Assembly (NCBI GenBank): GCA_036630325.1
Contig: CP142733.1
Location: 310,001-374,000, forward strand
Length of the DNA stretch: 64,000 nucleotides
Source of the DNA: Vairimorpha necatrix
Lineage: Eukaryota
Direction of reading: 5' to 3'
In this document: piece after piece, positions 25,720 to 50,900 of the stretch
Numbering within the stretch: position 1 is the first letter of the stretch
How the letters are laid out: every line of letters begins with the position of its first letter
Notes under the pieces: generated by a model
Databases searched by the model: none
Told to the model about the DNA's origin: nothing
Seen by the model: only the letters and a program-made list of their open reading frames with translations
Made by a program: the position numbers and the translations under genes

Positions 25720-27190
25720 GTGAGGGTGAACGGGACGAAACTTTCGGAAAAAATAAAGCCTAAATATTTTAAAAATTTCAAAGACAAAATCTGCATAAAA
25801 CCCCAAATCCACAGTCTTATTTAAAAAATCAGGTAGCCGAATCTCTTTATCAATATATTTTTGTTTACGTTAAAAAACATGATTTAAAACTGTTTGTTGT
25901 ATTATCTTAGTTCTAACTATATCTTCTTCATCCTTTAACTTGCTCATTAATAGATAAAAACTGTAGCGACTAGTACCAAATGTGTTTTTAAGGTATTATG
26001 CCAACCTTCAATAGCATTATTCGTTCTTGGAAATTCTATATCCATATTATTTCGCGTGTGCCACAAATTCGGCGGAAAACGGCATCCTAAATTAATATAA
26101 TTTGTAAAGAAATAGCAATATAACTCAGTCAAGCATTCCGGAAAATTTCCGTCTTGTTTTAGTTCCAAAAAAGTAGACAATATTTCGTCATATTCAACAT
26201 ATGCAAGTGCCGTAAGAGACAAAACAAACTTTTTCACCATAGGTGAACATGTGTAAACAGAAAAAAGTCCCGAACTTTTAACACGCCTATCAATAGCCTG
26301 AGCTAAATGAAAAAGACAACCTAAAATTTGACAATCCGGGGAAACTCTAAAAAATGCTCTTATCGCAGCATACTCAAAATCAGTTTTTATCAACCCTGGG
26401 TTGAGCTCCGGGAACCTTTTCTTTAACATTTGAAACAAAAAACAATAGGTTTCAAAACTTTTATCTTTCAAAATTGCAAATATTATCGGGAATACATGCG
26501 CATCACGGATGAAACTTATTGTGTAAAGTTGATAATATGGAATTGGAACCACAGTAAAAGGTCCATCCATCGCCCACATGTCATATAGAGCCATTTTTTC
26601 ATAGCAGAATCTGTATAAAAAATTATTATACTGTTATTGGGTTCTTCACTCCCGTAATTTTCAGGCCCATATCGATACCATTGTTCGCCTGTATGACTGA
26701 TTAATAAATCAGCACATAGACCCAATTTTTGGTCGACGTATGGTTTTGGATTTAAGGAATTCATCCGAGCATTCCTTAATATCCTTGTAATAGGCTCAAT
26801 TGGACCATTTGCAGCGATTGTTTCTTCCCCAGCTCCTCTTAAGGCAGAAAAAAAAATGTTTCTAGGAGAATCTTTGCCAGAGATAATCTCCCGTTTTATT
26901 TTATTTATTTTATTCTTCTTAAAGACCAGTTCTAGATTTGGTTCATGATTATGAGCCGAAGAAAAAATAAGGGTTCGAGATTATTGACGTAAACAATACT
27001 ACTAATGGCTTTGGCATTACAGCTTCGTACATTGCATCGCTACTTTATAGTAGTTTTGTTAATTCTTTATTTCTCGTAAATATATAGATTTTTATCTATA
27101 ATTTGATCCATATTTCTGTTGCTTTAAATTATCCTTTTTCGTCCAGTCATGGGGGTAAAAAATAAAAAAATAAAAAAGTTCGTTTTTTTT
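25720..27190 (-). mobile_element. MULE/Mutator transposase pseudogene (ATG ~27150; ORFs 26516-26764 and 25947-26594)
   Basis: Motifs WAMDGPF, YQLYTI, TDFE, GCLFHLAQA, RTNNAIEGWH and an N-terminal HNH-ending zinc-finger remnant. Ends are poorly defined. Confidence 0.85.
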
Positions 27191-29421: not shown

Positions 29422-30517
29422 GGCGCTCCTTAAATTCAAAATCACAGGGATTAAAAAAATTAAAAATTAAAAAAAACCAAAACCATTTATTCTAACAAAA
29501 GTATTTTTTTGAAAATTTCAGCATAAGTATCTATATTTTTGTCTTTTAGATATTTACTTCTAAATTGGAATTCATATATAAAATCTTCCATATTCACCTT
29601 CATTATTCCTCTTCTTGTTCTTAATTCTGTTTTTAAATGACTCCATAGATTCTCTATTTTATTAGTATGATGTCCATACTCATTAGTAAAGCCAACACTA
29701 TGATTAACAACTTCATGAACAGATCCGAAGTCACGAACAGCAGAACGGTAAGATGCAAAACCATCAGTTCTTATTATCGTTCCTTCGACAACATACTCCT
29801 TAAAAAGCTCTAACATCACAGCCGCAGTCCTATTAGGAACAATTTTTAGAAAACAGTCCCTATCTTCATTTTCTATACCCCCAACCAACCAAGTTGTTCC
29901 AGGTACATCATCTTCCTCTGTAGTAGGATTCGTAATTATACGACCTCTACAGATTGCTGTTTCGTCAACCTGAATAGTTTTACCTATTCCCCCTATTTTT
30001 ACAAAAAATGTATTTATTTCATTTTTTATTTTTTCAAGGATGACCCCCTTGAAAGAAATATATGTGGGCTCGGAGACCTCGCATGTTACTGAGGCCATAG
30101 GGTTAGTCATTTTCATTACCCAACAATACAACATTCTAAGTTGTATATGTGTGGGCATTCGAGACTTCTGGAGAAAAGTACCATTTTTGATACTTTTTCG
30201 CTTTTTGCAGCCATTTGTACAATAAAAGCAGATTCCTTCCAAGTAGTTTTTAGATTTTACTTGGTTCATAAAACAACCACAGTCACACTTTATAGTATTT
30301 CTGTAGAAGTTTAAAGCCTTTAAGTACTCTATAGCTGCTTCTTCTTCAACAAATATTATGCTGTAGAGATTTCTAACTTGCATTAGGGGCAAAAAATTGC
30401 TTTCCTTAAATTCAAAATCATAGGGGCATTTGGAATTTTTTTGTAGAATGTTTACAATACATGTTCGCGAATTTTTTAATTTTTTTAACCCCTGTGATTT
30501 TGAATTTAAGGAGCGCC
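29422..30517 (-). mobile_element. Intact Merlin transposon
   Basis: TIR GGCGCTCCTTAAATTCAAAATCACAGGG (perfect 28 bp). 8-bp TSD CTTTCTTG. Confidence 0.96.
29487..30383 (-). CDS. Merlin/ISXO2-like (IS1595) DDE transposase, 298 aa
   Basis: Uninterrupted ORF from a CCCCTA-ATG start (MQVRNLY). N-terminal Zn ribbon and catalytic motifs QVDET, RTDGF, NKIENLW. Confidence 0.92.
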   Translation of the reverse strand: MQVRNLYSIIFVEEEAAIEYLKALNFYRNTIKCDCGCFMNQVKSKNYLEGICFYCTNGCKKRKSIKNGTFLQKSRMPTHIQLRMLYCWVMKMTNPMASVTCEVSEPTYISFKGVILEKIKNEINTFFVKIGGIGKTIQVDETAICRGRIITNPTTEEDDVPGTTWLVGGIENEDRDCFLKIVPNRTAAVMLELFKEYVVEGTIIRTDGFASYRSAVRDFGSVHEVVNHSVGFTNEYGHHTNKIENLWSHLKTELRTRRGIMKVNMEDFIYEFQFRSKYLKDKNIDTYAEIFKKILLLE

Positions 30518-31724
30518 CTTTCTTGAATTTAAATATCATCAATGTTCAAAAATAATTATATAAAAAACACATCTGGAGATAAAACGAAGAGGGATCAAAC
30601 AAAAGGGATCGAAGGAAAGAGGACTATATAGATTTTACAAGTTTACAACAATATTACTTCGTTGAGCCGATGCCAGACACATATATCCATAACACATAGA
30701 TAAAAACATTCTAAAAATTGCAATTTAAATTACAATTATAAAGTTTAAAAAGATTAGCTTCAGAATAATGAACATGACAAATGCATATGTATAATATGTA
30801 TAAATGCACTATGACAAATTCGGAGATAAGGTACGTTAGACCCCCCCCCTTTAAAGCGCTTCGATTTTTTTTTCGAACCCCAAAATTGAAGTGCAAAAAA
30901 AAGAGGAGCAAGAAAGGGGCCAAAATTTCTTACCACTTAAAACATAAAAAATACAATTTTATTGTATAAAACTGCTTAAAATTAAATTTAAACCAATATA
31001 CGTTTTACAAAAACACCTTTTAACTATATTTTCGATAGGTTGTTGGGATTATTTCTTTTAAAAGAAAACAATTTAAGAAATAGATTTACATCTTTTTCAG
31101 TCCAATATCTTGCAGGAATCACTCTTTTTACACCAGCCCATGTTCCTTCGATTTTAAGTATGAACACCATTCTCTGGATTTATAAAACCAAGGGAATGGT
31201 TAACGGTATAGTGTTCGTATAACTCTAATTGAGTTAAATTTATATACCTTCTCCAACAATCGGAAAAATAATACTTCCAGGATGTACATATTCTGTTATT
31301 AATCTTTCGAGGGTCACTGTTTTTCTATTTTTAACTTTAAGTAAGACTAAGACTCGTTCTGTCGTCCTTCACCATCCCAAGTTGCCATCCGCCGTCAACT
31401 TTGTGGCCTTTGTTGTATTTTCTCTTTCCAAATTTAGACTGTCAATCTCTACAATCATACCTGGACCTCCTATTTTTTTATTACCAGTTACATGCTTACT
31501 TAAGGTTCTGATAATTCTATAAATCGTTTTTCGATTAAAACTATGAATTTTTTTATTTGTTTTTATGGCCGTATTTTCAACAAAAAGAAATATGACCTGG
31601 CATATTATCAGCCTTGCAATTTTGATCCATGAAAAGGTTTCCTTTTTGTTATCGTAAATTCTTTTCTGCAACTTTTTGTTGTACATCTCATTTGATTTTG
31701 TATTTCTTCCCGTCTTTGTACATT

Positions 31725-34473
31725 TGTTACAGTCAAAGTGTACATTCCAGGCAATGTATACATTACCTAGTGAATGTATACATTCACTAAGATTTGTAGT
31801 TAAAGTATTCATTGTAACTGAAATGAACACATTACCTAGTGAATGTATACATTCACGAGCTCCCTCTAGTCAAAGTGTTTACTCACTATTAAAATGAACA
31901 TTTTAACTAGTGAATGCATGTATTATCTAGACAATGTAAGCAGGGTTACTAACCAACTGCAGTCAAGCGATAATTGATGAATTTTAAAATAAAATTAAGT
32001 TGGAACAAGTTTTTTACAGGCACAAGACTATGATCGCCGTTCTAGATTCAGGTTAAAACATAAATGTTGAATTGGGAAATTGAAATTAGAACACACACAA
32101 TGATAGAGTTTTAACAGTAAAAACTAGGTTATATTAAATAAAAATTTTAGTTTTAAATTGAAACACATAATAATTAGAACAAAAGTTAGAACAACATAAA
32201 TAGGTTATAATATTAAATAAAATATATCGAAAAAACGAATTAATAATTGACTCTATGATGATTGCACTAAAGCGACAAAACATAAAATTAGAAAAGATAT
32301 AAATATAAAGCAAAAAAATACAATATAAAAGAAAGAATAATTTGAAACATAAACATAAGTAAAATTAGTAAAAAATGTTATTTATTTCCACAATTTAACC
32401 TTCCATGACATTTGGAGTTGCATAATTTATTTGCTTTAAAGCATGCACATCTTTTTGTTGCGCATTTTGTTTTGCATTGGCATTTGGAAAATCCCTGTCC
32501 GCTACCTATCGACTGTTTGGTAGCTATAGTACGTAATGGCAATTCAATTGCATTGTTTTCAATATCATTTGGCGTTAATATACTTTCAGGACACACGCCA
32601 AATTGAGATCTAGAATATAATCCTTTTAAAATACCATTACGTGTTCCGATTTGATAGTAATCATCACCAGTTTTTGTTAATAAACATCCTAGTACTGCAC
32701 GTGAATCTCCCCGTCCTCTATCAACTTCCGGTACCTTAATTCTAACTGTCATTCCAACCTCCGCCGGAGTATGCGAAGCATCAGAAATTTGTTTCATGCG
32801 CTTAGCTTGCTTGTTCAAGTTTTCTTTTGCTTCTGCTCGAACATAATTGATGCGTGATTGCAACTTACAAATATTGCACATTTTATTGCATTCCGAATTG
32901 AGTAAAATGTCACATCCATCACATTTTCGGTTCTCATTGTCATGTGATGAACTACACTGTTTCTTGTCATTCATTAGCCATTCACTGACGCCTTCTCGAA
33001 GATTATCTGATTCTAGATCTAGATCCTCTTCTTCATTAACTTCTACTTGAGTAATCTCCTGGATACTTTCTTCATTACAATTGATATTTTTAAGAATATT
33101 TTCCAAATCTTCTTCACTGTTTATACTGCTTAATGCCTCGTGTGGTAGGGAAGAAGAGGTAAGGCCGACCTTGGCGGGTTGTCCAAACATTGCCTCGTAA
33201 GGACTTCGCTTTATACCAGCGTGAAGGGCTCGATTTTTCATAAACTGCACATAACCCAGTCCTCTACTCCAATTACTAGTTTGATTCTGTTGCATCCATG
33301 CGGTTAAAATATTCTCAATATCTTGATTTGCACGCTCCACACTGCCTTGAGACTGGCTGTGGCGGGGCTTTCCATGCACAATTTTTAATTCAGGCCATAG
33401 ACCTTTGAAATCATCAATGACGTGGTTGACAAATTCTCTGCCATTGTCCGATTGCAAAATAGATGGTGCCCCAAATAGTAAAAAAATTTGAAGGAGTTGA
33501 TCAGCAACTTCATATGCTGTCTTATTCTTTAGGGGTCTTAGAATGACAAACTTTGTTAAGTGGTCCTGGTACACCAATATAAATTTATAATTATCATCTG
33601 GTTGTGATTGGAAGTCAATTAAATCTACTTGACATCTTGAATTAAAGTGAGAAAACACCATTGGCTTAACCACCAAGCCTTTCTTTTCATTCGCCCTTTT
33701 TTTAAGGCACACTTCACAATTATTTAAAAATATTTGAATATCTTGTGCTGTTATATTTTTAAAGCGAAGGTTAAGCTCCTTTTTCATTCTGTCTCGTCCT
33801 CCATGTCCAATTGATAAATGAGTTTCATATAAAACTTCAAACAATTCTTCAACAGTAACATAATACAGCACTTTTTCATCTGCTATTGGTGCAATTAGTT
33901 TATCCACATTACTCACATACACTGTATCATAATGTTTTAGTAACCAGAAGTGACGATTTTCTTTTTTTCTGAGCTGATTTAGCGGATTTAACATCACTTA
34001 TTAGTTGAGCATATCTTTCCGTATTCATACGAAAGCCGTTAGCTTTTTGTGGAGTATTGTTAATGTGCTGGTAGAACTTATCTTTCATTGGTTGTTTATC
34101 CATTTTATTTTTAGGGTAAAATAATTAAAAATTATTAATTTCTATGGACACATATAATTTAAATAACTCACTTACCATCCAACAATCAGCCAGTGTGTAC
34201 TCTCTTAAACTGCACAGATAGAGCAACATTCAACAGCACACAGTGCATCACGAATAAAGAGGTTAGGTTTAAGGTTTCCTAGCAAATTTAACGATTTAAC
34301 CTACGGATTTAACATACAACACTTTGACTAGAGGGAGCTCGTGAATGTATACATTCACTAGGTAATGTGTTCATTTCAGTTACAATGAATACTTTAACTA
34401 CAAATCTTAGTTGAATGTATACATTCACTAGGTAATGTATACATTGCCTGGAATGTACACTTTGACTGTAACA
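31725..34473 (-). mobile_element. Ginger2-type (Gypsy-integrase) DNA transposon
   Basis: ~155-bp near-perfect TIRs starting TGTTACAGTCAAAGTG, with internal repeats. 4-bp TSD CATT. Confidence 0.93.
32378..34103 (-). CDS. Integrase-type transposase (KRAB-A2/SCAND3-like) with C-terminal Cys-rich domain; one +1 frameshift in an A-run near 33965
   Basis: H-H-C-C zinc motif; DDE motifs QVDLID, QSDNGREF, QGSVER; C-terminal CQCKTKC...CACFK...CNSKCH. CCCTA motif before ATG 34103. Confidence 0.88.
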
Positions 34474-34897: not shown

Positions 34898-36094
34898 GGC
34901 GCTACTTCATTTTCTTGCTTCTAAAAAAACATCAATAAAAATGTACAAAATCGTGTTATTTTTCAAATCTAAACATTTTTTTTTTTTGAAGGGGCAAGAA
35001 AATGAAGTTAAGGTATTATTTGTCGATTTAAGAATTTTAAATGCCTCCTTCAGATTCCTCATTAAGCGGTTAAAAAATTATATTTTTCTAATCCCTTTAT
35101 GAGGAATCATTAAAGGCTATTCGGGAGCTAAATACCTGCGAAGAGGCGTGCTTTAGGAACAATGCAGCAATTGATTTTTTTAGATAATGGTCTTCTAAAA
35201 AGGTCGATTGCTTGCAGACATTGTTCGACATCAGAACATACTGTTCTTATGAACATTAGTGAATATTCCGGTTACATTGACGCTAAAGCTTATCGTTGTA
35301 TTAATAAAAAGTGTAGTTCGAAGAGCTCACTTAAAAATTGTGCGATTTTTAAAGGGATAAGCGTTCAATTTGCGCAATCCTTAAAGCATTCTATTGCTAG
35401 GTATTTAATTATACTACTTACCAAGCAATAGATCTTTGCAAAATATGTGAAAATTTATATATTAAATTGAGGATACAGTGATGGAAGTCATTGCTCCAAA
35501 TGCGAAGATAGCTACCAAATTGAAGGAACTTCTGTTCGTGTACAATTTGATGAAACCACCATATGCAACGGGGTAATTGTATCCAATCCTTCTTCAACTT
35601 TGGATTCCATGCCTGGAATATAATGGATTATAGGCGGCATCTTAGAGGGTAACTGTAGAGAATTTGTTTTTAAATTTCCGAATCTACATTATGATACTAT
35701 TGAAGAGTTTTTTAGACGCAGAGTAAAACGTGGCTCTATTATAATTACTTATGGATATCCTTCTTATCCTTCAGCCTCTAGAAATTTTGGGAGTGAACAT
35801 TACATAGTAAATCATTCGCTTGGGTTTATAAATGCAGAAGGAGACCACACAAATAATATAGAAAATTTGTGGTCCCATTTGAAGAATGAATATAGATTGA
35901 GAATGGGGCTTAAAAGGCATAGGATAAATTTATTTCTAAAAGAATTCGCTTGGGAAAAAAAAATATCAATCATTTCAATAATGATGATTATAGGTGTGCT
36001 TATATAAAAATTTTAGAACTTTGTAAATTTGAATAAATAAAATTTCTTCTAAATAAATTTTTTTCTAGGAAGGGCAAGGAAATGAAGTAGCGCC
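34898..36094 (+). mobile_element. Merlin transposon, degenerate (family of 52350)
   Basis: TIR GGCGCTACTTCATTT. Motifs QFDET, VNHS, HTNNIENLW. Flanks differ. Confidence 0.88.
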
Positions 36095-36572
36095 TATATT
36101 GATATAATAAGAAAAAGTAAGATCAAAAGAAAACACATAATTATGAACTTAAAATCGGTGCTTAGTTTATGTGAGAAACTTCTCTACAAATAAACTCGAT
36201 AAAAAATTTACTTGTCCATACAGGGCAAATCAGAAGGGGAAGAATGGATTATGGTACAAATTAAATAAACTAACAGGATGGTTTCACATGAAACAGTTAA
36301 AGCTTTGAGAGGAGGCAGGATGTTGTGGACTGTTAGTCTTCAAAATTTAATTTATTTCATTCCCTGTCAAAACTATCATAGAATTTTCTACAAAAACTAC
36401 AATAAATAAAATCTCACAAGTGAAGGGCACAAAAAAGGAGACAGATGAGATAAGAAGAGACTAAACAAGCTAAAGGAGCTATGAACAACAAATAAAATAA
36501 ATAAAGATAGTTATACTAGAAATATTTTAGAGTTGTATTTACTCACCGGGGTAGTTAGCCCTGGATACCACA
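36095..36572 (+). mobile_element. 3' end of a Gypsy element related to 345-5285 (integrase tail, PPT, LTR 36321-36572)
   Basis: Similar to 3290-3560. PPT GAGAGGAGGCAGGA then TGTTGTGGACTGTTAGTCTTCAA...CCACA. Confidence 0.82.
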
Positions 36573-36587
36573 GTACTCCATCAATTA

Positions 36588-38600
36588 CTAATTTTGTTTA
36601 GCAACTTCACCTTTTAGCTCTTTATTTATTTCATCTATATGCCTATTAACTACCGATAATTTTTCGCGTTGTTCTTTGGTCAAATATAATCTCTCTGTAT
36701 TATTATCTTCATATCTATTAAAGAGCTCTTTCTTACTCAAAACAAAACCTGGTCTATATACTACATGTTTTTCCAACCAAGATTTAATTTCATCTTCCAC
36801 ATTTTTTAATGTCTCTAATTCCAACTGACATGCTTCATGTATTTGTATCGTAATCTTTCTATATTCTCTCAGTGTATTTATCAGCAATGCAAACATCGAA
36901 CAAACATACCTAGAATCGCTCTCTACTTTCATACATTGATCTAGATCTATTTTTTTCATATTTTTGTTTAGGAATTTCCACGAATTTAGTTTCAAAGGGT
37001 ATAATCTTAACCCGCATCCATAATGCATAATCAGTTGAGGAGAAGGAAAACAGATCGTTCATGGCAAAAACAAAATTAGTTCTTAATTTAAATTTTACTA
37101 TATAATTGTCGTATAAATTACGGGCTGCTATTTCGTCCGAACCACATAGTTTTTTAATAAATTCGGTTTTTAACTTAAAAGACTCTGGTTCAGAAAGTAA
37201 ACCAACTTTGATCGTTTTAAGACCCTTTACCACTGGATTTACAGTTTTTCCACTGTTGCTTTCGGTAGAAAAAAAAAGTTGACTTTAGTGTATCGGAAAA
37301 ACTTTTAAAAACTAAGGATAGAAGTCGCATTAAAAGACTTTCCCATTACTACCAACCCCCCTGAAAACAATAGACTATCATTGGGTTTCCTACTGTCCAA
37401 CCAATAAGCCATAGTGATTACTGCGTAATTCAATACATTAGGGTCTGGGAAGATTGACTTTAATAGAGAATAGGCCATATAAGTATCTTCTTCCTTATAA
37501 TCAAAATCGAAACATTTTGAAAATAAATCCCCTTCGGTGTATGGTCGGATTGTGTATCGAGCTTCTCTTCAAAACTTGAATCGTTCATAGATAAGTATAA
37601 CCCCTACTCGGTCTATATCAGTCACAAATCTGCGCCCTGCCCTTGCTAAATAGACTTCAATGTCATCACTTTGTACAAAGTCAGTGAATGGCCGTAAAAA
37701 TCCTTTAATGAATTTACAATAGCTAAATTAAAGCCTTTACTAGACACCTTCTTCCAAAAATACCCTTCTCGTTAAAAGAGTTGTAAGTTAGACCATTTAA
37801 ATTTTTTTAAAATAAGATGACAATTTAAATATATACCCACCACCTCACCTACTTGTGTTCTAATTATTTTCACCTGTAATTCCATTTCTATTTCCGAATA
37901 CTTCGATGTAATCTCATTAATTAATAATATTTTTTCTAGATTATCACATTTTGATTCCCTTCTTGGGATTGCAGGCGGATTAATTTTAATAAATTTAATA
38001 TAGATTTTCCTATTATCATTATTAATAATAATCTCAATATTATTTATTAAGGCATAAGGTTCTGAATTTTTATAGGCTTCTACGGTTATAACCCTATCCT
38101 CGTATGGAGAACTAACAACATGAGTATTGCCTCTCAATACATGTTTTGGATCTTTCTTGTTAGTAAACGCATTTAAGATTGATGGATTTAAATATTTGGA
38201 AGCAGCTATTTCTATTATGCCTCCCCCGTCGTATTCAAACTAGAAGGCACTCTTATCATGTTGATTGTAAGTATTCATTGACTGCAGATAGATACATAGC
38301 ACCCGATTCAAAAATTAAATTTATTATCTTACAATCTAAAACATTTTCAGTTATTATTTCTTGACCACCTTTACATTCTTCGTCATAGCATTTTAAATAA
38401 ATGATATCTTTAAAAATCATAATCATTCCATGATTTCGTTTATGGGATCGTCCTTTTACTATACATGACCTCGTAAGGCACAATCCCACAATCTGTTTTA
38501 ATGATAGGTACTAATAATTTGGTATAAGGCAGTTTATAAGCCGCCAAAATTGCTACAGATAAATTATAAAAAGCACATAATATAATGAAAAGGCCGTCTA
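36588..38600 (-). pseudogene. Poxvirus D5/P4-type primase-helicase (SF3) remnant
   Basis: Walker A FRGVGSNGK (~37340-37368), SEPE, IKKLCGSDEIAARNLY, FAMND, RVKIIPF. Upstream Zn-finger-like C..KGRSHKRN...LKCYDEEC. Several frameshifts. Confidence 0.85.
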
Positions 38601-38656
38601 CATTCAAACACGTTTTTTTTTATGGAGTACAAGGTGGCCTTCTTGGCATTATTGAA

Positions 38657-40416
38657 TGTCCCCGTTCGGAGCGGACGCAGGGGAAAATGCTTACTTGAGA
38701 AGGGTAAAAAAAAATCCGCCCGGAGCGGACGCTGGGAAAATGCTTACTTGAGAAGGGTAAAAAATAAAGTAAAAAAAATCGTTGGTTTTTCTTTGTAATT
38801 TGTATATAAAAATTATTTAATTTTAAGGGCATGAAAATAAAATTGGATAACAATGAAAGACAAGAAGTTTTTGTCTTTTTACAGACTGGTATCGTTCCAA
38901 CAAGGTTGGTTGAAAGACAAGCAAGAGGCGCTTTTAGGAAAAAAGCAAAAAAATTTATCCTTTTTGAGGATGTAATTGATGGTATCACAGAGCTCACGGT
39001 GAGATTTAAAGTAGGTCTATATAGATCGTTAAGATTCTTTACCACCAACGAGCAACGTTTTAAAATTGATCCACGTCTTAAATGGGCATGCGGGAAAGAT
39101 TGTTTCCATTATTGCAAACAAAAGTCTACGACGCAACTAAAAACGATATCCAGAGAGTTTTGAATAGCTGTGGAATATGTCAATCAAAGAGAAATCTAGT
39201 AACTAGACCAGTTATTAGAATAATTTTATCAAAATATCCAAGGGAAAGATATGTTGCAGACTTGATTGATCTCCGTCTATATCACGAACTCAATGAAGGA
39301 TATAAATGGTTATTAAATGTTGTAGATTCTTTTACCAAATTTTGTTGGACGGTACCACTATATGTCAAATCAAGTATTAGTGAAGGGAATGCTTTTGAAA
39401 CATTGTTTAGGACGTTTAACCCTTGTTTTATACTTCATACTCATAACGGTAGAGAATTTGTAAATCAAGTACTCGACGATTTATGTCAGAAATATGAAAT
39501 AAGACACGTAAGGGGGAGAGCTAGATGTTCATGGATACAAGGACAGAAAGAACGATGCAATCAAATAATAAAGTGGATGATTGCATCTACTCTCAGGACA
39601 AAGAATACTTTAGGGCAATGGACCAAGGTAAGAGAAGAAGTTACCTGGTCATATAATAATTTAAGACACTCTACTACGAGACAAACACCATTCTCTTTAA
39701 TGTTTGGTAGACCCATTAGGGACATAATGGACGAATCAGAATCATGGGCATTCTAGATTCGATTAATAGCGAAAATCATGAACAAGAGTTTAAGGACGAA
39801 GAACGCGCTGAAGAAAGTTTATCAGATGTTCTAGATGGCAATACCAATGAAGAAATACAGTAACTCTATGCTCTTAATAATACAAACCTTTTTTTAAATA
39901 AAATTTATCATGATGCAGCTAGAATTCATACACAAACTGCTGCAGATAGAATGGTACAAAGAAGTATGTGAAGAAATGATTTCTTAAAATTTAAAATAGG
40001 AGATAGAGTTCTTATAAGACCTTATCTGGACAACAATGTCAATACCAGAAGACATTCGCTTTATGAACATTTAGATGCAGAAATCTATGTTGCAACCGAC
40101 ATATACAATTTAATAAAGTGAAATTATGCAGAGAAGATGATAATAGAATTATTATAGATGAAATGAGTACAAGGGATCTTAGGTTTCTTGGAAATGAATA
40201 AAGTACTAAAAATATTGTTTATTTTATTTTTCTCCTTTTTTCATTATTCCCTCCCATAATTTTAAAAATAAAACAAAAATATACCCCTCAAAAAATTGAG
40301 AAAAAATTTGGGTGGTCATTAAAATCGAACATTTATTTGTTCTTATTTTCTGGTTCGACCATCATTGAGAGATTTTTTTTAATTTTTAGCCCTTGCGTCC
40401 GCTCCGGACCGTGACA
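38657..40416 (+). mobile_element. Second Ginger-type integrase transposon family, pseudogene (ATG 38831 to ~40200)
   Basis: TIR TGTC(C/A)CG(T/G)..CGGAGCGGACGCA. Motifs VADLID, HTHNGREF (catalytic D apparently lost), QGQKER. Flanking 4-mers differ. Confidence 0.88.
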
Positions 40417-40491
40417 ATTATTATTTTTTTTTCGTTTCTCTATAAGGGGACACTTAGAGAGAAAAAAAGTCCGGGCTCGGGCCGTTGCGCC
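40417..40491. mobile_element. Merlin terminal remnant (family of 15276)
   Basis: Reverse complement matches 15276-15350. Confidence 0.7.
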
Positions 40492-40991
40492 GAAAATGCA
40501 TATAAATACACATTATTGTTATATAAGTGAAACTTGAGTATCTTTTTTTGTTTTTAAAGCATTTATGAAATTTGCCATTTTCCATCTCATTCTTGTATAT
40601 ATAAATAGAGATACAATAAAAAGACAAATCTTGAAAAATATGAAAAAATTAAGAACAGCCGAAAATGCATATAAATACACATTATTGTTATATAAGTGAC
40701 ACTTGAGTATCTTTATTTGTTTTTAAAGCATTTATGAAATTTGCCATTTTTCCTTCTCTTTTTTGTATATATATATAAGAAGACAAATCTTGAAAAATAT
40801 GAAAAAATTAAGAACGGCTGAAAATGCATATTAATACACATTATTGTTATATAAGCGACACTTGAGTATCTTTATTTGTTCTTAAAGCATTTATGAAATT
40901 TGCCATTTTCCTTCTCTTTTTTGTATATATATATAAGAAGACAAATCTTGAAAAATATGAAAAAATTAAGAACAGCTGAAAATGCATATAA
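40492..40991. repeat. Tandem repeat, three units of 169, 159 and 158 bp plus a partial unit
   Basis: Units start GAAAATGCATA at 40492, 40661, 40820 and 40978. Confidence 0.92.
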
Positions 40992-43848
40992 TTGTACGGT
41001 CTTATGTGATAACAAAAAATCTGTGTATATATATATGCGTACTTATTGGTTTATATGATTTATTTTTTCTTTAAGTAAATCAAAGTATGTCTTTATTATG
41101 AAGATTTTAAAACAGAATGATTCTAAAAGTTTCTAGTGTAATCGTGGGCGTTTTACGATTTAACATTCTAACATAAGAATAAAATTAATAAATGTATACT
41201 AATTAATAAAATTTTTTATTATATTGATTAAATATTTTAAAAACTCTCAGAAACATTTTATACATTAATTACAATTACATCTAAATATATATATACTAGT
41301 CACAATTACCAGCAATATTTCTAATTTTTTTGGCTTTGGAAAGTATCTTTGTATGTTTGTACATGAGAGAGATAATGAACACGAAAAAGGGGAAATTGAC
41401 ATCTCATAAAACCTATTAAAATAACACATGTAGTATATGTAAGTAGAAGTTGAAGTTTTTTATTCTAATTAAAACCTTTATTACATACATGTTTAAATTT
41501 TTCTAAAGGGTATCTATCTGCATATATATATAAAAGTACAAAATAAAAAACGAAAAAATCAAGAAAAATATACATAAATATTAGTGCAGTGAAATTAATT
41601 GTATTGAAATAATAGAAATTTTTTTAATGGTAATAAATAATATATAAGTATTTTTATGTATTTAAAACATTCAATTATATAATTATTGCCGTATCAACAC
41701 ATAGAATAAATAGATTTTGAATTAAACAAATCAGAATATAATTTGTGTATAAATCAATAACAAAGATTTTTTGAATTTTTAGATGAATTCTTACTATTGA
41801 AATACATCGAGGTACATTAGAAAGAATATAATTGTGGATAAAAAACAACCAATACCCCATTGGAAAATAATACTGTATAAAAATACAACTTTTAATATAA
41901 TATAAAACGAAATTTAAATATCATGAAGATTTTATATTTTATTCATCTAATACGAGAGAGCGATTATATAAATGCATCGAAAATAAACACAATTTCTATT
42001 AAGAATAATAGCAAAATCTCATAAGTACATATGTATGAATTTAACATTCAAATTATCTAAAAATTATATTTTTCATACTTAATGTAGATATTATCGTAGC
42101 CAATCAAATACTGATCAATCATATTCTCACAAATTGGCAGATTTAATTGGCTACAAAAAGTTTTTAAAAAAATTTCCAAGAGAGGGCATGGAAAATAAGA
42201 ATCAAGAAATTGACATATTTCAAATAAATAACATCTTACAAAATCAAGATACTTATATTATATAATTATATATAATTTTTTGCATAATTTAATAAGAATT
42301 TCTAAAAAAATAAGTTTGAATAAGAATTGTCATAAATATAAAAATTATGTTATGTCGAAATAACATCCAGATGATCACGCTACAAAGCATTTGTCTGGAC
42401 TAGTGAAGGAGAGGATACGGAGCTGATGTGGAAAGGTATATGGAGATGAGAAGCAATCTACAAGCAGGAGACGCTAACGCGGAACCTATCCTTGTTAAAC
42501 TATAAATATAAATTAAAATAAGCATACCCTAATTTGATTCATTTATTTTTATGTCAAATAACTATATTCCAACGATATCTTATGGTAGTATAACATAGAG
42601 TTCGCGACCCAATATAGGATTATAAAATTAGTTATAACATCTTGATCTTAAGATATCTCACGATTTTACGAAATCAAAATTACTTTTAATAAAGAATAGT
42701 TCTAGAAAAACTTACTTTTAATATATGATAATATTGGCAAACCTGTTCATGAGATGATTAGACCACCTTCAATTAAAACGAAATATATGTATATATATAT
42801 ATCTGATTGTTATGTTAGTATCTTTCTATTAGAGAAAATATTTTATATCTGATCGTATAATATATACTCGTTAAATCAGTAGTTGTTCAAAAAAAGTAAA
42901 AAAGGACTCAACATTTTAAACTAATATTTTTTGTATATCTTTTGTATAGAAACCTCATTAATAACAATTTTAATATATATATAATACTTTTTTGTTTAAT
43001 ATTTTGTTTTCGATATTTCTAAAATTTTATCCTTATAAATCTGTTTTAAACTAAAAGCAAATTGAGAATTAGGGATATTAAAAATACATCCTAATTAAAA
43101 TTATTCATTGTTTATAATATAGTGTTATAACACTAAATATGATAACGTTTTGAATTTTACCATTTATTTATATCAGTATATGGAGGGACACAAAAAATTT
43201 TAGCATTCTAAAAGTTTTCATAAATTATCTATTTAAATTCTCATAATCATAAATAATAAAACTAAAAAAATCATCAACATATTCTTGTTTACATATATCA
43301 CACAATTCAATGTTTAGTTACACAATTTATCAGACTGATGCTCTATGAATAATATTAGTAAGTGGGATTATTTAAATACTCTAAATGTATAAAATTGCAC
43401 CTTTATTCTAAATAAAACTGTTTCCAAATAATCTAATATTCATAAATTGATCTTAATTCTATGATTCCTTTTAATAATTGATACATTTATTAAGATAATG
43501 GTAAACTTATATCTATAGAAGTTCTCGCAACCAAAAAAATCACAATGATTATGTAATAATCATACTTATTTTTGATTGGGCAATAATTAGGTATAAATGC
43601 GATCATATAAATCATTATTTTCTACGGACTAGAAATATATGACCGAAGAAACCTTATGTTTATCAATCAATAGATTATATAACTAAATTTGGTCAAAGCT
43701 AATGTAGCGGAAGAGCTTCTATTATAATTATAGTAAAAAGTTGCAATTACAATTCTTGTGGCAGCCCGCGTTTTTCACTGTTAATGTAATTTTTTTTACT
43801 TTATGTTTATATTCTTTTTTATCAGCTAATGATTATTATACAATTTCA

Positions 43849-45675: not shown

Positions 45676-46688
45676 GGCTAAAGTCAGCTTTAACGGAAAA
45701 AATTCGATATAGGGTTTTTTGCCCCTTTTTTAAAAAAATGGAGGAGAGAAAATGTTGAGGAAGAACAAAAATAACAAATAAAATAAATATTTTAATAATG
45801 CGTGAAAACCCGGGGTAGAAGAGTTCCTTTGTAGCATATACCTAAATAAATAAAGTTCCGCACCACGAACAGATCTGTTTCTATTTGGAATAGAATTTTT
45901 TGAAGAGCGCCAATTACCTTCTATGGTATTGGTATGAACTCCGGTTATTGGGTCTCTGAAGTGTAGAGAATGATTTACCATCAGATGTTGGTTAAATATT
46001 AAGCCCAAATTACGGTAGGCTCTCCACATATCGCTATAAATTGTACTATTTCTTTCTACATACTTTAACAAAAGATTAGTTGGCGTTATTTGGTCTCTTT
46101 TTTCAATATAAATAAATATAATTCTGCGTTGTATGGTACGTTCGACCATACCAAAACACCAGAAACCTTTTACTGGTTTGCTGCTACTATATTTATTTTT
46201 ACCAATCTTAGATTCATCAAATTCTACAATAGTATTATTACCACCTATAATTCCGATACTGGCCAGATATGTCTCATAAATATTAATTTCTTTTAGCTTT
46301 TTTAGTATATTAGATATTGATTGCTGAGAACAACCTAGGATTTGACAGATAGACTTACGAGAATATCCAAGAATCCACATATTAAGTATCTGCAATACTA
46401 TAATATGGTCTAGTCTAGAATGCTGAAAGAAAGTATCTTTCCATACAGAAACATTAAATTTGCATTTAGTCCATTTACATCGCAGGATCATGCTTTTTTT
46501 GTCCTTTATTTTCATTTCTGATCCACAAGATTCACATTTGCGTTTCGCTTTTTCTATTTTCAATTCATAATATATATTTTCAAGTTCTTCTCTTGTTTGA
46601 ATTCTCTCCTCCATTTTTTTAAAAAAGGGGCAAAAAAATCAAAAAAAAACCCTATATCGAAATTTATCCGTTAAAGCTGACTTTAGCC
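45676..46688 (-). mobile_element. Merlin transposon with open transposase ORF
   Basis: TIR GGCTAAAGTCAGCTTTAACGGA. 8-bp TSD AAACTATA. Confidence 0.95.
45730..46614 (-). CDS. Merlin/ISXO2-like DDE transposase, 294 aa
   Basis: Motifs CESC...CKWTKC, VEFDESK, YSDMWRAY, VNHS, TNTIEGNW. Confidence 0.9.
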   Translation of the reverse strand: MEERIQTREELENIYYELKIEKAKRKCESCGSEMKIKDKKSMILRCKWTKCKFNVSVWKDTFFQHSRLDHIIVLQILNMWILGYSRKSICQILGCSQQSISNILKKLKEINIYETYLASIGIIGGNNTIVEFDESKIGKNKYSSSKPVKGFWCFGMVERTIQRRIIFIYIEKRDQITPTNLLLKYVERNSTIYSDMWRAYRNLGLIFNQHLMVNHSLHFRDPITGVHTNTIEGNWRSSKNSIPNRNRSVRGAELYLFRYMLQRNSSTPGFHALLKYLFYLLFLFFLNIFSPPFF

Positions 46689-47971: not shown

Positions 47972-50900
47972 TGTCACAGTCCGGAGCGGACGCACGTCCG
48001 CAACGGACGCAAGGGGTAAAAAATCAAAAAAAATCTCTCAATGAGGGGCGAACCAGAAAATAAGAACAAATAAATGTTTGATTTTAGTGACTGCCCAATT
48101 TTTTTCTCGATTTTTTAGGGGTATATTTTTGTTTTATTTTTATAATAATGGGAGGGAATAATGAAAAAAGGAGAAAAATAAAATAAACAAAATTTTGAGT
48201 ACCTTATTCATTTCCATGCAACCTGAGTGTTACCGGCTGTGTTGCACACGCCAATAATCAGACTGAAACTGAAAGATGAAACAAATGATAATGATCTGAA
48301 ACATACTTGTTTCAGATCCGAAACTAAAACTATTTAAGAAATCTTAAATAGAAAAAACATGCCAAATAAATATAGTTCTTCTTCTAATAAAAAGCCTTCT
48401 TCAATAACCAGCTCTCCTTCTGGTAACACTGGCGACAACTATTCGAAATCCAACGAATTGGATCACCTGCTAGATAAGTTAGGAATATCAACTAACACGA
48501 TGGTGAAATCAACGGGACCCAATGCGAGAATGCATGGGTTTGGATTAACCAATTCAAATATCTCGAGGGAGAATGGAGTGACAATAAACTATTGAACTAT
48601 ACGAAGAGATACCTGGGGGATATAGCGCTCCAATGGTATGAGGCTATGGTTATAGACGAGGTGGAAGCATACACGGAATTTAAACAAATTTTCCTAAGAA
48701 AGTATGGAAAAGAAGAGTTCCAGGAAGAAATTGACTATACTAGAATGCTTTACAAGAAACTTTACTCTGGACCTCAATCTAGGAAGATTGAAAACTTCAT
48801 TTACGACCTGGTAAAGCTAAACAAGAAAGCTAAGGTCAGCATGACTGGAATCACTGAGGAATTGGCGAAATATTTCCCACCATCACTGAAAGAAAAGGTG
48901 GAAGAGGCAACGTCATGGGACGTTGTACTGGAGATTTACGAGAAAAATAGTAAGTTCATTGAGAGTTCAAGGCAGAGACCCGAACAGGGTAGGCCAAGAG
49001 AAGCGAAGACTTCGAGGCCAGATACCACAAGGACTAAAGAGAGTCCAAAAAGCTAGTATGCTATAAGTGCGGAGGTGAGCACTTATTTAAGGACTGTAAT
49101 AAACACTAAGGAAAGAAAGTGTTATTAGTTGAAACAGATCCTGTGTCAAAGTACACAAATTACACTACGGTCGAAGGATATTTTAATGGCGACGTAGTCA
49201 GAATGCTTTTCGATTCAGGTGCCTCTAGCTCTTTTATTGATGAAGACCTGGTTAGCAGAGAGGAATTAAGGAAAGGGAAAGGAGTCACACTCAGAACTGC
49301 AATTTCTAGCACTGTAGTAAACGATTCATTGGAAGCGAAAATCAAACTTGGTGGAGAACGATTCAAAACGACATTGCTTGTTGTGCCAAACCTTAACGAA
49401 AACATTATACTCGGGCGCGACTTTATGATGAAGCACGGAGTCAAAATAGATCATGAGAATCAGACAATCAGGTTAAATAATAAAATTATTAACTCCTATA
49501 TTTTGTTAAGCACGAGGCGGCCTAGACTTCTAATTGTTGTTGCGAACTTTAAAGTGACGCAAGCCTCGATTACTAGACTCATAGACCGTTATAAGACACG
49601 GGTATCTAAGCACAAGGGAACAAGTTCAACAGTGGAACATGAGATTCAACTAACGGTCCCTAAAGTTATATGTAAACGAAATTACCCTTTGAGTCTAGAC
49701 AAAAGGAAATTCATACAGGAAGAAGTCGAGAGACTATTAGACGAAGGAATAATCGAGGAAAGCACGAGTACATGGAATGCCCCCACGGTAGTAGTACCGA
49801 AAAGGAATGGTGGTATGCGACTGTGCATAGACTTCAGGGAGTTAAACGAGATCACTGTGAAGGAAGTATGTCAACCCCCGTTGATTGAAGAATGTTTAAC
49901 GCACTTGAGCGGCGCGAGAATATACTCCCAGCTAGATCTGGAAAAGGGATATTAAATACCCGCGAAAAATGAATCAAAGAAACTCACTGCGTTCATGACA
50001 CCATCTGGGAAGTTTCAATTTCGAAGAATGCCCTTTGGTCTGACAAATGCGCCAGCGACGTTCCAAAGCTTAATGTATAAAATATTTAGGAAACAACTAA
50101 ATAGAACCACCGTAGTCTACTTAGACGATATCTTCGTGTACTCAAAAACAAGGGCAGAACACGAGGTTCACCTTAAAGAAGTCTTTGATATCTTAGCTGA
50201 AAACAACCTACAAATAAATTTCAAAAAAAGTAAGTTTATGATGGATACAATCGACATCCTTGGATATACGATAGTCTCTGGATCAGTGACGCCTGATAAA
50301 TCAAGAATGGGTCCGCTAGAAACAGCTCTTGAGTTAAAAAATATTAGACAACTACAATAAGCTATCGGACTCTTGGGATTCTATCGTATGTTCATAAGAA
50401 ACTTCAGTGAAAAAGCCCTAGATATACACCGGGCTATAAACGAGAAAGGCCCCATCACAACGAAGGTAAGAGAAGCCGTAGATTCTCTTAGATTAGAACT
50501 GATAAACAGTCCATGGCTGGCACTTCCCGACATGAAACGACCATTTATTATCGAAGCAGACGCTTCGGACTCGTGTATCGGGGGAGCTCTCAAACAGGTA
50601 CAGGCGGGCAAAAAAGTAACAATACGCTGTGCGAGTAGAGTTCTGAATAAGCATGAACGTAATTATACGACTTTAGAAAAGGAAACTTTAGCTATAATTT
50701 TCTCAGTTAAAAGCTTTAAAATGTACTTACACGATGAATTTACAATTAAGAGCGACCATAAGCCTCTCATGTGGCTGTATAAAGTGAAAAATCCACAAGG
50801 AAGAATAGCTCGGTGGTTGATGTTCCTAAGCGACTTACGCTTCAAGATAGAGTACAAGGAAGGGAAGTCACATATCCTACCAGATTGCCTATCTAGAGTA

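What the first reader, a model, noticed from the sequence alone, without database searches (positions are those of the whole stretch)
36588..38600. Virus-like D5 primase-helicase fossil in a eukaryotic TE cluster
Seen: SF3 helicase motifs (GxGxNGK, SEPE, LCGSDEIAARNLY, RVKIIPF) preceded by a CxxKGRSHKRN...CYDEEC zinc-finger-like segment, over about 2 kb. It is bounded by a Gypsy LTR on one side and a Ginger TIR on the other. Known: D5-type primase-helicases are replication genes of NCLDVs, Polinton-like viruses, virophages and some plasmids, and are not core eukaryotic genes. Inference: this is the remnant of an endogenous DNA virus or an undescribed self-replicating element of this host, whose AEP domain and other genes were removed by the Ginger-associated rearrangement (its TSDs do not match).
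Basis: partly seen in the sequence, partly recalled or inferred. Interest (0 to 1): 0.72.

Follow-up and report, generated by a model that had tools for sequence, protein, structure and literature searches.

The report
Dead virus-type primase-helicase gene in microsporidian
This is a broken, non-functional copy of a giant-virus-type DNA primase-helicase gene that belongs to a small gene family of Vairimorpha (Nosema-group) microsporidia, a trace of past contact with a DNA virus or virus-like replicon.

Summary
On the minus strand, about 38474 to 36514, lies a collinear series of reading-frame pieces: a UL52-type zinc finger, a linker, the end of a D5_N domain and an SF3 helicase with its C-terminal domain. 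A profile built only from 77 non-microsporidian relatives hits three pieces at E 1.3e-32, 1.2e-11 and 3.6e-8; nothing else in the window beats E 0.2. The gene is dead: at least 6 frameshifts, 4 stops, and a degenerate Walker A and arginine finger. It is not unique. Its closest relative is an annotated Vairimorpha necatrix 'primase' (63% identity over 429 residues). Four V. necatrix and two V. apis proteins belong to the family, and none has the AEP primase domain. In a careful tree the window copy nests inside the V. necatrix clade (100/98). That clade sits among full-length AEP-zinc finger-D5_N-SF3 proteins, one of them on a giant-virus-like metagenomic contig. The nearest solved structures are ASFV C962R and poxvirus D5/E5. 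Viral ancestry is supported. That the neighbouring transposon removed the AEP domain is not supported. No other viral gene and no element ends were found, and no genome was available to map copies. My searches found no paper on this family. Interest is moderate.

The parts
38289..38474 (-). UL52-type zinc finger remnant (C-x6-H-x17-C-x4-C; all four ligands present), inside ORF piece 38510-38256, which ends in a stop
   Evidence: Pfam PF03121 E 3.7e-4, 20.7 bits against a cut-off of 21. N-terminal profile of 23 full-length relatives: E 4.2e-9, profile positions 269-329. tblastn with P0004 residues 57-114: E 1.4e-5. Sequence read.
37922..38239 (-). Linker between zinc finger and D5_N, in a different frame from the zinc finger
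   Evidence: Weak collinear match to the N-terminal profile: E 0.019, positions 367-444. Weak tblastn matches to P0003 and P0004.
37335..37921 (-). D5_N-like region ending in a degenerate Walker A (GLVVMGKS). It contains two in-frame stops (37774-37772, 37571-37569) and a frameshift near 37697.
   Evidence: tblastn with P0001. Helicase-region profile: E 1.2e-11 for piece 37568-37308. No Pfam D5_N hit for the window's own pieces; paralogues P0002 and P0004 pass the D5_N cut-off. An identical 253-nt contig in run X1 covers 37611-37863.
36952..37333 (-). SF3 helicase core: Walker B LLSEPES, LCGSDEIAARNLY, sensor-1 FAMND, and an arginine-finger region reading WMR instead of WRR. Frameshifts lie near 37335, 37271 and 36952.
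   Evidence: TIGR01613 E 1.3e-7. PHROG DNA primase families down to 8e-10. Profile E 1.3e-32. 81% identity to P0001.
36514..36950 (-). C-terminal domain of the helicase. A stop lies at 36590-36588, followed by a further frame change; the last approximately 24 codons are still recognisable.
   Evidence: Profile E 3.6e-8. TIGR01613 positions 209-289, E 0.0079. tblastn with P0003 residues 379-500. Frames read. A contig of run X2 covers 36412-36626 with 1 difference.
38650..40423 (+). Neighbouring TIR-bounded element with an rve integrase ORF (39082-39756). It cuts off or abuts the 5' side of the pseudogene and is not part of the fossil.
   Evidence: 34-nt inverted arms (I1). Pfam rve. Shared terminal motif present 4 times in the window against 0.03 expected. 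Terminal alignment. Depth 35-70 and a deletion derivative in run X2.
34898..36094 (+). Neighbouring Merlin/IS1595-like element with 21-nt TIRs, beyond a dispersed repeat (36102-36431) on the 3' side. It is not part of the fossil.
   Evidence: Inverted repeat I5. DDE_Tnp_IS1595, E 1.5e-10. Second copy at 52350-53562, 89% identical. Repeat alignment.

Best explanation
The feature is a dead pseudogene. It descends from a D5-type primase-helicase of the kind that nucleocytoplasmic large DNA viruses encode. That protein has an AEP primase, a UL52-type zinc finger, a D5_N domain and a hexameric SF3 helicase that unwinds DNA at the replication fork.

A gene of this kind entered the Nosema/Vairimorpha lineage of microsporidia (inferred). 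It lost its AEP part and was copied several times within the V. necatrix lineage onto different chromosomes. It is now decaying neutrally in transposon-rich DNA.

The window copy keeps the zinc finger, linker, D5_N end, helicase core and C-terminal domain in the original order. It is broken by at least 6 frameshifts and 4 stops and has lost key P-loop and arginine-finger residues, so it does nothing today.

Shown: homology, order of domains, breakage, family membership and tree position. Inferred: viral source, time of AEP loss and mode of copying.
For: - **Profile hits.** Collinear profile hits lie in three frames, with no other hit in the window.
- **Closest relative.** It is 'primase [Vairimorpha necatrix]' P0001: 81% identity over the core piece and 63% over 429 residues of the read-through with X at breaks.
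- **Family.** P0001-P0004 lie on four different contigs of more than 1 Mb. V. apis has P0008 and P0153.
- **Named hits.** Of the 10 rows that carry an organism name among the 120 listed, 3 are eukaryotic, all Vairimorpha. The other 7 are Bacillus.
- **Careful tree** (40 rows, 390 columns). Window + P0001: 100/100. Four V. necatrix + window: 100/98. A 14-row clade with V. apis, unnamed close contigs and the full-length P0012: 100/99. A 34-row clade including P0155/L001: 100/99.
- **L001.** This is a 48-kb, 25% GC contig carrying TFIIS, dCMP deaminase, asparagine synthase, T5orf172/MSV199, an F-box protein and DUF5672, a giant-virus-like gene set.
- **AEP_C962R.** By my count, 87 of the 120 listed relatives of P0002 carry Pfam AEP_C962R, on contigs up to 505 kb.
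- **Solved structures, by sequence.** The family profile hits ASFV C962R at E 8.5e-38 and poxvirus D5/E5 at about 1e-20.
- **Structure.** The AF2 model of V. apis P0153 (pLDDT 87.3) matches D5 helicase-primases of giant viruses in BFVD, and MPXV E5, ASFV PrimPol and vaccinia D5 in PDB.
- **Decay of annotated paralogues.** P0001: Walker A N to D, sensor-1 N to D. P0002: Walker B E to N, sensor-1 N to E. P0003: Walker A deleted. P0004: truncated.
- **Lesions are not assembly noise.** Independent contigs reproduce 37611-37863 exactly and 36412-36626 with 1 difference.
- **Copy number.** Depth in run X2 over the pseudogene is 0-9, against 30-120 over the flanking transposons, so it is low-copy.
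Against: - No whole genome was held. Copy number, flanks of the other copies and linkage to other viral genes could not be examined.
- The window's own pieces do not reach any curated cut-off. TIGR01613 scores 30.8 bits against 108.7. Herpes_UL52 scores 20.7 against 21. Pfam D5_N does not hit at all.
- The relatives nearest to the microsporidian clade are unnamed contigs of 2.9-4.9 kb, so their hosts or viruses are unknown.
- Four IMG/VR scans found no close viral relative.
- Foldseek also lists virophage and phage primase-helicases with similar scores, so the fold does not single out giant viruses.
- V. apis P0153 keeps all helicase motifs, so part of the family may be functional rather than fossil.
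Confidence: 0.8

Rival explanations
1. The gene is the replication module of an undescribed mobile or episomal element of microsporidia, such as a primase-helicase-bearing transposon or small replicon. That element multiplied by its own transposition or re-integration, and the window holds one dead copy.
For: The V. necatrix copies form their own clade, separate from the V. apis copies (100/98), and lie on at least four chromosome-size contigs. This fits amplification within the lineage. The nearest full-length relatives sit on contigs barely longer than the gene, 2.9-4.9 kb.
Against: No terminal repeats or duplicated target sites bracket the pseudogene; both flanks are other transposons. Depth in run X2 is low compared with real transposons beside it. 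The copies are only 41-63% identical to the window copy, and each is broken differently. Short contigs are weak evidence: a same-cluster partner of the 2981-nt-contig protein P0014 lies on a 68.7-kb contig.
Confidence: 0.25
2. The family is a domesticated host gene, a helicase without its primase used by the microsporidian. The window holds a pseudogenised duplicate.
For: V. apis P0153 (629 aa) keeps Walker A, Walker B, sensor-1 and the arginine finger and folds with high confidence. The genes are annotated as proteins in two species.
Against: All four annotated V. necatrix proteins lack a catalytic residue or a whole motif. No named relative was seen in other microsporidia or fungi in the lists examined. 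No conserved position or expression could be tested.
Confidence: 0.12
3. The sequence is contamination or misassembly from a DNA virus of the insect host, not microsporidian DNA.
For: Ascovirus, iridovirus and ichnovirus proteins appear among the structural matches.
Against: The pseudogene is embedded between transposons that are multi-copy in the same run. Its GC content (0.31) matches its surroundings. It is riddled with stops, unlike a viral gene. Its paralogues lie on contigs of more than 1 Mb of an assembled microsporidian genome.
Confidence: 0.02

Closest known systems
Vairimorpha necatrix 'primase' XP_065329923.1 (P0001) and paralogues P0002-P0004; V. apis 'primase' / 'phage primase' (P0153, P0008)
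   Same: Same gene family. Identity to the window read-through is 63% (P0001), 42% (P0003) and 41% (P0002). The domain order is the same, and P0004 shares the CHCC zinc finger. The window copy is sister to P0001 (100/100).
   Different: The window copy is not annotatable as a protein: it has at least 6 frameshifts and 4 stops. The annotated ones are open frames but lack catalytic residues or segments.
African swine fever virus C962R primase-helicase (AsfvPrimPol; PDB 8iqh, 8iqi, 8wvz)
   Same: Best solved relative of the family profile: E 8.5e-38 over D5_N, the SF3 helicase and the C-terminal domain. It is also a Foldseek match to the P0153 model, E 1.9e-23.
   Different: C962R has an N-terminal AEP domain (Pfam AEP_C962R). 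The window and all 6 named microsporidian proteins lack it. Identity is only about 15%.
Poxvirus D5 / monkeypox E5 helicase-primase (PDB 8apl, 8xj8, 8wh0)
   Same: D5_N plus a hexameric SF3 helicase: profile E about 1e-20 and Foldseek E 1.1e-23.
   Different: More distant than C962R by sequence. The poxvirus protein is intact and essential for genome replication (established knowledge), while this one is a fossil without the primase.
Full-length metagenomic AEP + UL52 zinc finger + D5_N + SF3 proteins (P0010-P0012, P0155, L001 ORF 9935-12841)
   Same: Nearest non-microsporidian relatives, in the same strongly supported clade (100/99). They share the zinc-finger pattern C-x6-H-x17-C-x2/4-C. P0155 passes the Herpes_UL52 cut-off at 22 bits.
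   Different: They keep about 300 residues of AEP primase upstream of the zinc finger. One (L001) sits in a giant-virus-like contig, not in a eukaryotic transposon cluster.
Phage/plasmid P4-family primases (TIGR01613) and virophage or Polinton-like-virus primase-helicases
   Same: Same SF3 helicase core. The window's piece matches TIGR01613 (E 1.3e-7) and PHROG primases. Virophage proteins appear in BFVD matches.
   Different: In the 88-row tree the Bacillus and Prim-Pol (PF09250) types fall outside the clade that holds the microsporidian copies. No named virophage or PLV sequence could be put in the tree.

Membership tests
D5/P4-type SF3 helicase (D5_N + SF3 core) | Significant, collinear profile match over the helicase core and C-terminal domain | tested here: met
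   A profile of 77 non-microsporidian relatives gives E 1.3e-32, 1.2e-11 and 3.6e-8 for three collinear pieces; the next best of 1434 pieces has E 0.23. TIGR01613 gives E 1.3e-7, but 30.8 bits is below its whole-protein cut-off of 108.7.
D5/P4-type SF3 helicase (D5_N + SF3 core) | Walker A P-loop GxGxNGK[ST] | tested here: inconclusive
   The window reads GLVVMGKS. GKS is kept, but the third-position G and the N are replaced. Relatives read GSGSNGKS.
D5/P4-type SF3 helicase (D5_N + SF3 core) | Walker B (hhhSEPE), sensor-1 Asn (motif C) and arginine finger (WRR) | tested here: inconclusive
   Walker B LLSEPES and sensor-1 FAMND are present. The arginine-finger region reads WMR, with the first R lost.
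D5/P4-type SF3 helicase (D5_N + SF3 core) | Pfam D5_N (PF08706) domain upstream of the helicase | tested here: inconclusive
   No Pfam hit for the window's own pieces, even with stops read as X. Paralogues P0002 (28.9 bits), P0004 (26.7) and P0007 (27.3) pass the 22.4 cut-off. The homologous window piece matches the family profile at E 1.2e-11.
D5/P4-type SF3 helicase (D5_N + SF3 core) | Open reading frame able to give a protein | tested here: not met
   At least 6 frame changes and 4 stops between 38510 and 36514. It is a member by descent only.
Giant-virus-type primase-helicase (AEP + zinc finger + D5_N + SF3) | N-terminal archaeo-eukaryotic primase (AEP) domain | tested here: not met
   No tblastn hit of 13 relatives' N-termini at E up to 1. 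No hit to profile positions 1-260 of 23 full-length relatives better than E 0.5 in any of 1434 pieces. 0 of 6 named microsporidian proteins have it.
Giant-virus-type primase-helicase (AEP + zinc finger + D5_N + SF3) | UL52-type zinc finger (C, H, C, C) between primase and helicase | tested here: met
   C-x6-H-x17-C-x4-C is intact. N-terminal profile: E 4.2e-9 at positions 269-329. Pfam Herpes_UL52 scores 20.7 bits, just under the cut-off of 21; relative P0155 scores 22 bits.
Endogenous giant-virus insertion (multi-gene) | Linkage to other viral hallmark genes (capsid, packaging ATPase, PolB, transcription factors) | tested here: not met
   Among the 34 frames of 120 aa or more in the window, none that was scanned is a viral gene. 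Those scanned are Merlin, MULE and rve integrase genes; the others read as Gypsy gag-pol or are unannotated. Decayed genes shorter than that were not searched with viral profiles. The rest of the genome was not available.
Transposable element carrying the gene | Terminal repeats and target-site duplication bracketing the unit; shared flanks among copies | tested here: inconclusive
   No repeat pair brackets 36.4-38.65 kb, and both flanks are other elements.

The most novel reading that the evidence does not exclude
The family records a DNA virus related to giant viruses, or a primase-helicase episome, that once replicated in or alongside Nosema/Vairimorpha microsporidia. That would be the first genomic trace of a DNA virus associated with Microsporidia. 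The lineage re-integrated repeatedly in V. necatrix, and at least one copy (V. apis P0153, all helicase motifs intact) may still work as a helicase without a primase. The unnamed full-length relatives inside the same 14-row clade (P0012 group) could be the still-living virus or replicon.
Probability: 0.3. Interest if true: 0.75.

Novelty: new member of a known kind. Interest (0 to 1): 0.45.

Why it matters
Fossils of giant-virus-type genes are known from many eukaryotic genomes, and D5-type helicases are among the commonest. Microsporidia are extremely reduced intracellular parasites, and as far as I recall no DNA virus of them is known.

A lineage-specific, multi-copy D5-type family in Vairimorpha gives a concrete handle on two questions. 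One is whether these parasites were hosts of DNA viruses. The other is whether they picked up genes from viruses sharing the same insect cell.

The proteins are already deposited under the names 'primase' and 'phage primase', but my searches found no discussion of them:
- Six full-text searches found nothing on the family.
- The V. necatrix genome paper PMC10759460 has 0 occurrences of 'primase' or 'helicase' in its main text (find mode).
- The N. apis genome paper PMC3726280 has 0 occurrences of 'primase' or 'phage' (find mode).

For this window itself the practical result is modest: it is a dead gene in a transposon cluster.

Tried and rejected
- **Whole genome.** None is held, so I made no copy census, flank alignment or search for linked viral genes.
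- **Earlier findings of this scan.** Three look-ups returned nothing.
- **Pfam on single pieces.** This gave only the borderline UL52 hit. Pieces read with stops as X gave 0 families. P0001 itself has no Pfam family at E up to 0.01.
- **IMG/VR scans.** Scans with alignment A1 and with P0010, P0011 and P0012 found 0 confirmed relatives.
- **Metagenome scans.** The scan with P0155 gave L001 and a fragment, L002. The record behind L001 could not be searched for a capsid gene.
- **N-terminal part of P0004.** A search with residues 1-230 found only P0004 itself.
- **Sequencing runs.** No run holds the stretch in full and no RNA holder is listed, so nothing can be said on expression. Parts of the pseudogene without cover in X2 are not evidence of absence. 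The single identical 253-nt contig in a freshwater metagenome (X1) is too little to name a habitat.
- **'Gypsy LTR' boundary.** I rejected this as unshown: 36102-36431 is a dispersed repeat with two other copies at 74-77% identity and no LTR features that I could show.
- **Small single-gene replicons.** I considered that the short contigs of the nearest relatives mean this, but a cluster partner of one lies on a 68.7-kb contig.
- **Atlas look-alikes**. These only repeat the D5_N/DUF5906 family assignment.
Full report
**What is there**

The window is AT-rich (GC 0.23-0.39 per 2 kb) and filled with transposon genes. These include Merlin/IS1595-like transposases, Gypsy gag-pol, a MULE transposase and rve integrases.

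On the minus strand between about 38510 and 36514 lies a chain of short open pieces in all three frames:
- 38510-38256 carries CIVKGRSHKRN...CYDEEC.
- 38239-37646 is a linker with one internal stop.
- 37727-37305 has one internal stop and ends in GLVVMGKS.
- 37345-37217 is a short connecting piece.
- 37284-36910 carries LLSEPES, LCGSDEIAARNLY, FAMND and RVKIIPF.
- 37058-36588 is followed by a last recognisable stretch down to about 36514 in yet another frame.

**Is it more than chance?**

Yes, on several independent measures.
- Piece 37284-36910 matches the P4-family primase C-terminal model TIGR01613 (E 1.3e-7) and eight PHROG families, seven of them DNA primase, helicase or polymerase/primase (best 8.2e-10).
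- I built a profile from 77 relatives that excludes every microsporidian and close unnamed row. I searched it against all 1434 stop-to-stop pieces (25 aa or more) of the six frames. Four pieces of this locus hit in collinear order:

| Piece | E-value | Profile positions |
|---|---|---|
| 37568-37308 | 1.2e-11 | 56-129 |
| 37345-37220 | 0.061 | 128-159 |
| 37284-36913 | 1.3e-32 | 149-262 |
| 37058-36591 | 3.6e-8 | 253-353 |

  The best hit elsewhere has E 0.23.
- A second profile, of the N-terminal 468-661 residues of 23 full-length relatives, hits the zinc-finger piece at E 4.2e-9 (profile 269-329). It hits the linker piece weakly (E 0.019, profile 367-444).
- Pfam places the zinc finger next to Herpes_UL52 at 20.7 bits against a cut-off of 21. 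The relative P0155 passes at 22 bits.
- The ligand pattern C-x6-H-x17-C-x4-C is intact. As I recall, human PrimPol has C-x6-H-x19-C-x4-C; that figure is from memory, not from a call.

**It is dead**

Compared with the closest protein, the locus needs at least six frame changes:
- 38259/38239
- near 37697
- near 37335
- near 37271
- near 36952
- at 36590

It contains stops at 38258-38256, 37774-37772, 37571-37569 and 36590-36588. Two conserved P-loop positions and the first arginine of the WRR finger are replaced.

These lesions are not assembly noise. A 253-nt contig of run X1 is identical over 37611-37863, which covers one stop and one frame change. A 215-nt contig of run X2 covers 36412-36626 with one difference.

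**It belongs to a family**

- A word-indexed search with the core piece found one protein, 'primase [Vairimorpha necatrix]' (P0001, 394 aa, 81% identity).
- An exhaustive HMMER search with P0001 found 13467 proteins at E up to 1e-3, of which 13 are at E up to 1e-30.
- Of the ten closest looked up, four are named Vairimorpha proteins: V. necatrix P0002, P0003 and P0004, and V. apis P0008. One has only a JGI label and five have no name.
- A further V. apis protein, P0153 (629 aa), came.
- P0001-P0004 lie on four different contigs of 1.07-1.47 Mb.
- The window read-through (X at every break) is 63% identical to P0001 over 429 residues, 42% to P0003, 41% to P0002 and 37% to P0004.
- None of the six named proteins has an AEP domain. 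P0004 and the window keep the zinc finger, and the others start in the linker.
- All four V. necatrix proteins are themselves damaged in catalytic motifs, while V. apis P0153 is intact in all of them.
- tblastn with 13 relatives and the N-terminal profile found no AEP remnant anywhere in the window. Only one copy of the family is in the window.

**Where the family comes from**

The nearest non-microsporidian relatives (P0010, P0011, P0012, P0155) are 918-991 aa. In the alignment they show an AEP-like N-terminus, the same zinc finger, D5_N and the SF3 helicase. Pfam sees only D5_N, DUF5906 and, for P0155, Herpes_UL52 in them.

Further out, by my count 87 of the 120 listed relatives of P0002 carry Pfam AEP_C962R. 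Most of these also have PriCT_2, D5_N and DUF5906, on contigs up to 505 kb.

The careful IQ-TREE analysis (40 rows, 390 columns; ultrafast bootstrap/SH-aLRT) gives:

| Clade | Support |
|---|---|
| Window + P0001 | 100/100 |
| Four V. necatrix proteins + window | 100/98 |
| 14-row clade: V. apis, unnamed close rows, full-length P0012 group | 100/99 (unresolved inside) |
| 22-row clade with P0010 | 100/99 |
| 34-row clade with P0155 and the L001 ORF | 100/99 |
| AEP_C962R-type rows (used as outgroup) | - |

The larger quick tree (88 rows) has the same shape. It puts the Bacillus and most Prim-Pol-type rows outside.

L001 is the only relative for which I could read context. It is part of a 48-kb metagenomic contig of 25% GC. 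It encodes TFIIS, dCMP deaminase, asparagine synthase, a T5orf172/MSV199 protein, HSP20, an F-box protein, DUF5672 and a PQ-loop protein. I read this gene set as giant-virus-like; that is inference, since no capsid gene could be searched for.

The family profile hits ASFV C962R (E 8.5e-38) and poxvirus D5/E5 (about 1e-20) among solved structures.

An AlphaFold2 model of V. apis P0153 (pLDDT 87.3, pTM 0.73) has these matches:
- In BFVD, D5 helicase-primases of Bodo saltans virus (2.7e-34), Heterosigma akashiwo virus, klosneuviruses, an ascovirus, mimivirus and pithovirus. Virophage and phage primases follow with only slightly weaker scores.
- In PDB, MPXV E5, ASFV PrimPol and vaccinia D5.

**Surroundings**

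- **5' side.** Homology stops between 38474 and 38650. At 38650 begins an element bounded by 34-nt inverted arms (38650-38683 / 40390-40423, 79% complementary). It carries an rve integrase ORF (39082-39756) that resembles the 539-aa integrase ORF at 32378-33997. Its terminal motif occurs four times in the window against 0.03 expected. It is multi-copy in run X2 and has a deletion derivative there. With the ends as I place them, the four bases outside the two arms differ.
- **Beyond that element.** A 158-169-nt tandem repeat and very AT-rich DNA follow, with no AEP signal.
- **3' side.** The ORF remnant ends near 36514. 36102-36431 is a dispersed repeat, with copies at 3279-3568 and 345-458 at 74-77% identity. 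34898-36094 is a Merlin/IS1595-like element with 21-nt TIRs and a second copy at 52350-53562. A Gypsy LTR at this boundary was not confirmed.

**Copy number**

In run X2, contig depth is 30-120 over the flanking elements. Over the pseudogene it is 0-9. The family therefore behaves as low-copy DNA, not as an abundant transposon.

**Organism**

The organism is not given. It is V. necatrix or a close relative, by inference from three points:
- The nested tree position.
- GC content near the published 28.3%.
- The published 50% repeat content (PMC10759460, passages read in find mode).

**How it works**

The ancestral protein, by homology to D5 and C962R (established knowledge of those enzymes), primes DNA synthesis with its AEP domain. 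It holds template with the zinc finger. It unwinds DNA as a hexameric SF3 helicase driven by the Walker A/B, sensor-1 and arginine-finger residues. The window copy can do none of this.

The mode of entry and of copying is inferred. My estimates:
- Fossil of a virus-type gene in a lineage-specific family: 0.8.
- Within that, amplification as part of a mobile or episomal element: 0.25.
- Domesticated host function for part of the family: 0.12.
- Contamination: 0.02.

**Novelty**

The proteins are deposited and named, so the family is not unknown to databases. However:
- Six literature searches found nothing on the family: 'microsporidia' + 'primase-helicase'; 'Vairimorpha necatrix' + 'primase'; 'microsporidia' + 'Nucleocytoviricota' + 'endogenous'; a five-term Nosema search; 'microsporidia' + 'D5-like'; and the V. 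necatrix genome/TE search. I judged the hits from their listed titles and abstracts only.
- The two genome papers do not mention the family in their main text.

I file it as a new member of a known kind: an endogenous fossil of a giant-virus-type D5 primase-helicase. The host group, Microsporidia, is the unusual point.

Noticed in passing
window 34898-36094 and 52350-53562; also 29487-30545 and 45730-46638: This is a Merlin/IS1595-like DNA transposon family. Two 1.2-kb copies are 89% identical and have 21-nt TIRs. Longer copies have open 352-aa and 302-aa transposase frames, so the family may be recently active.
   Followed up: partly
window 40066-40409 versus 47996-48227 and 52233-52349: The sequences flanking the 48228-52232 Gypsy-type gag-pol unit are contiguous (reverse strand) at 40066-40409, with a 5-nt overlap at 40178-40182. 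This looks like an empty site and a filled site of one retroelement insertion into the end region of the TIR/integrase element, with a 5-nt target duplication.
   Followed up: partly
window 40447-41012: A tandem repeat of 158-169-nt units has three or more copies at 72-92% identity. Depth in run X2 is very high (up to 122), so it is a satellite of this genome.
   Followed up: no
window 38892-40103 (run X2): A contig of run X2 joins 38892 to 40103, skipping 1210 nt with 13 other letters between. This is an internally deleted derivative of the TIR/integrase element.
   Followed up: no
window 32378-33997 (-): An open 539-aa frame has integrase H2C2 and rve domains and a cysteine-rich C-terminus. 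It is the likely autonomous relative of the decayed integrase at 39082-39756.
   Followed up: partly
window 37611-37863 (run X1): A 253-nt contig from a run labelled freshwater metagenome is identical to this part of the pseudogene. This is odd for a parasite of terrestrial insects, and too little to interpret.
   Followed up: no
P0010-P0013, P0016, P0029, P0036 (proteins, no window coordinates): The full-length relatives closest to the microsporidian clade all come from contigs of 2.9-4.9 kb that hold little more than this one gene. They could be transcripts, assembly fragments or small replicons; I could not fetch the contigs.
   Followed up: partly
window 25947-26980 (-): A MULE transposase domain (E 1.9e-8) lies in two overlapping frames. 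It is another DNA transposon family in the cluster.
   Followed up: no
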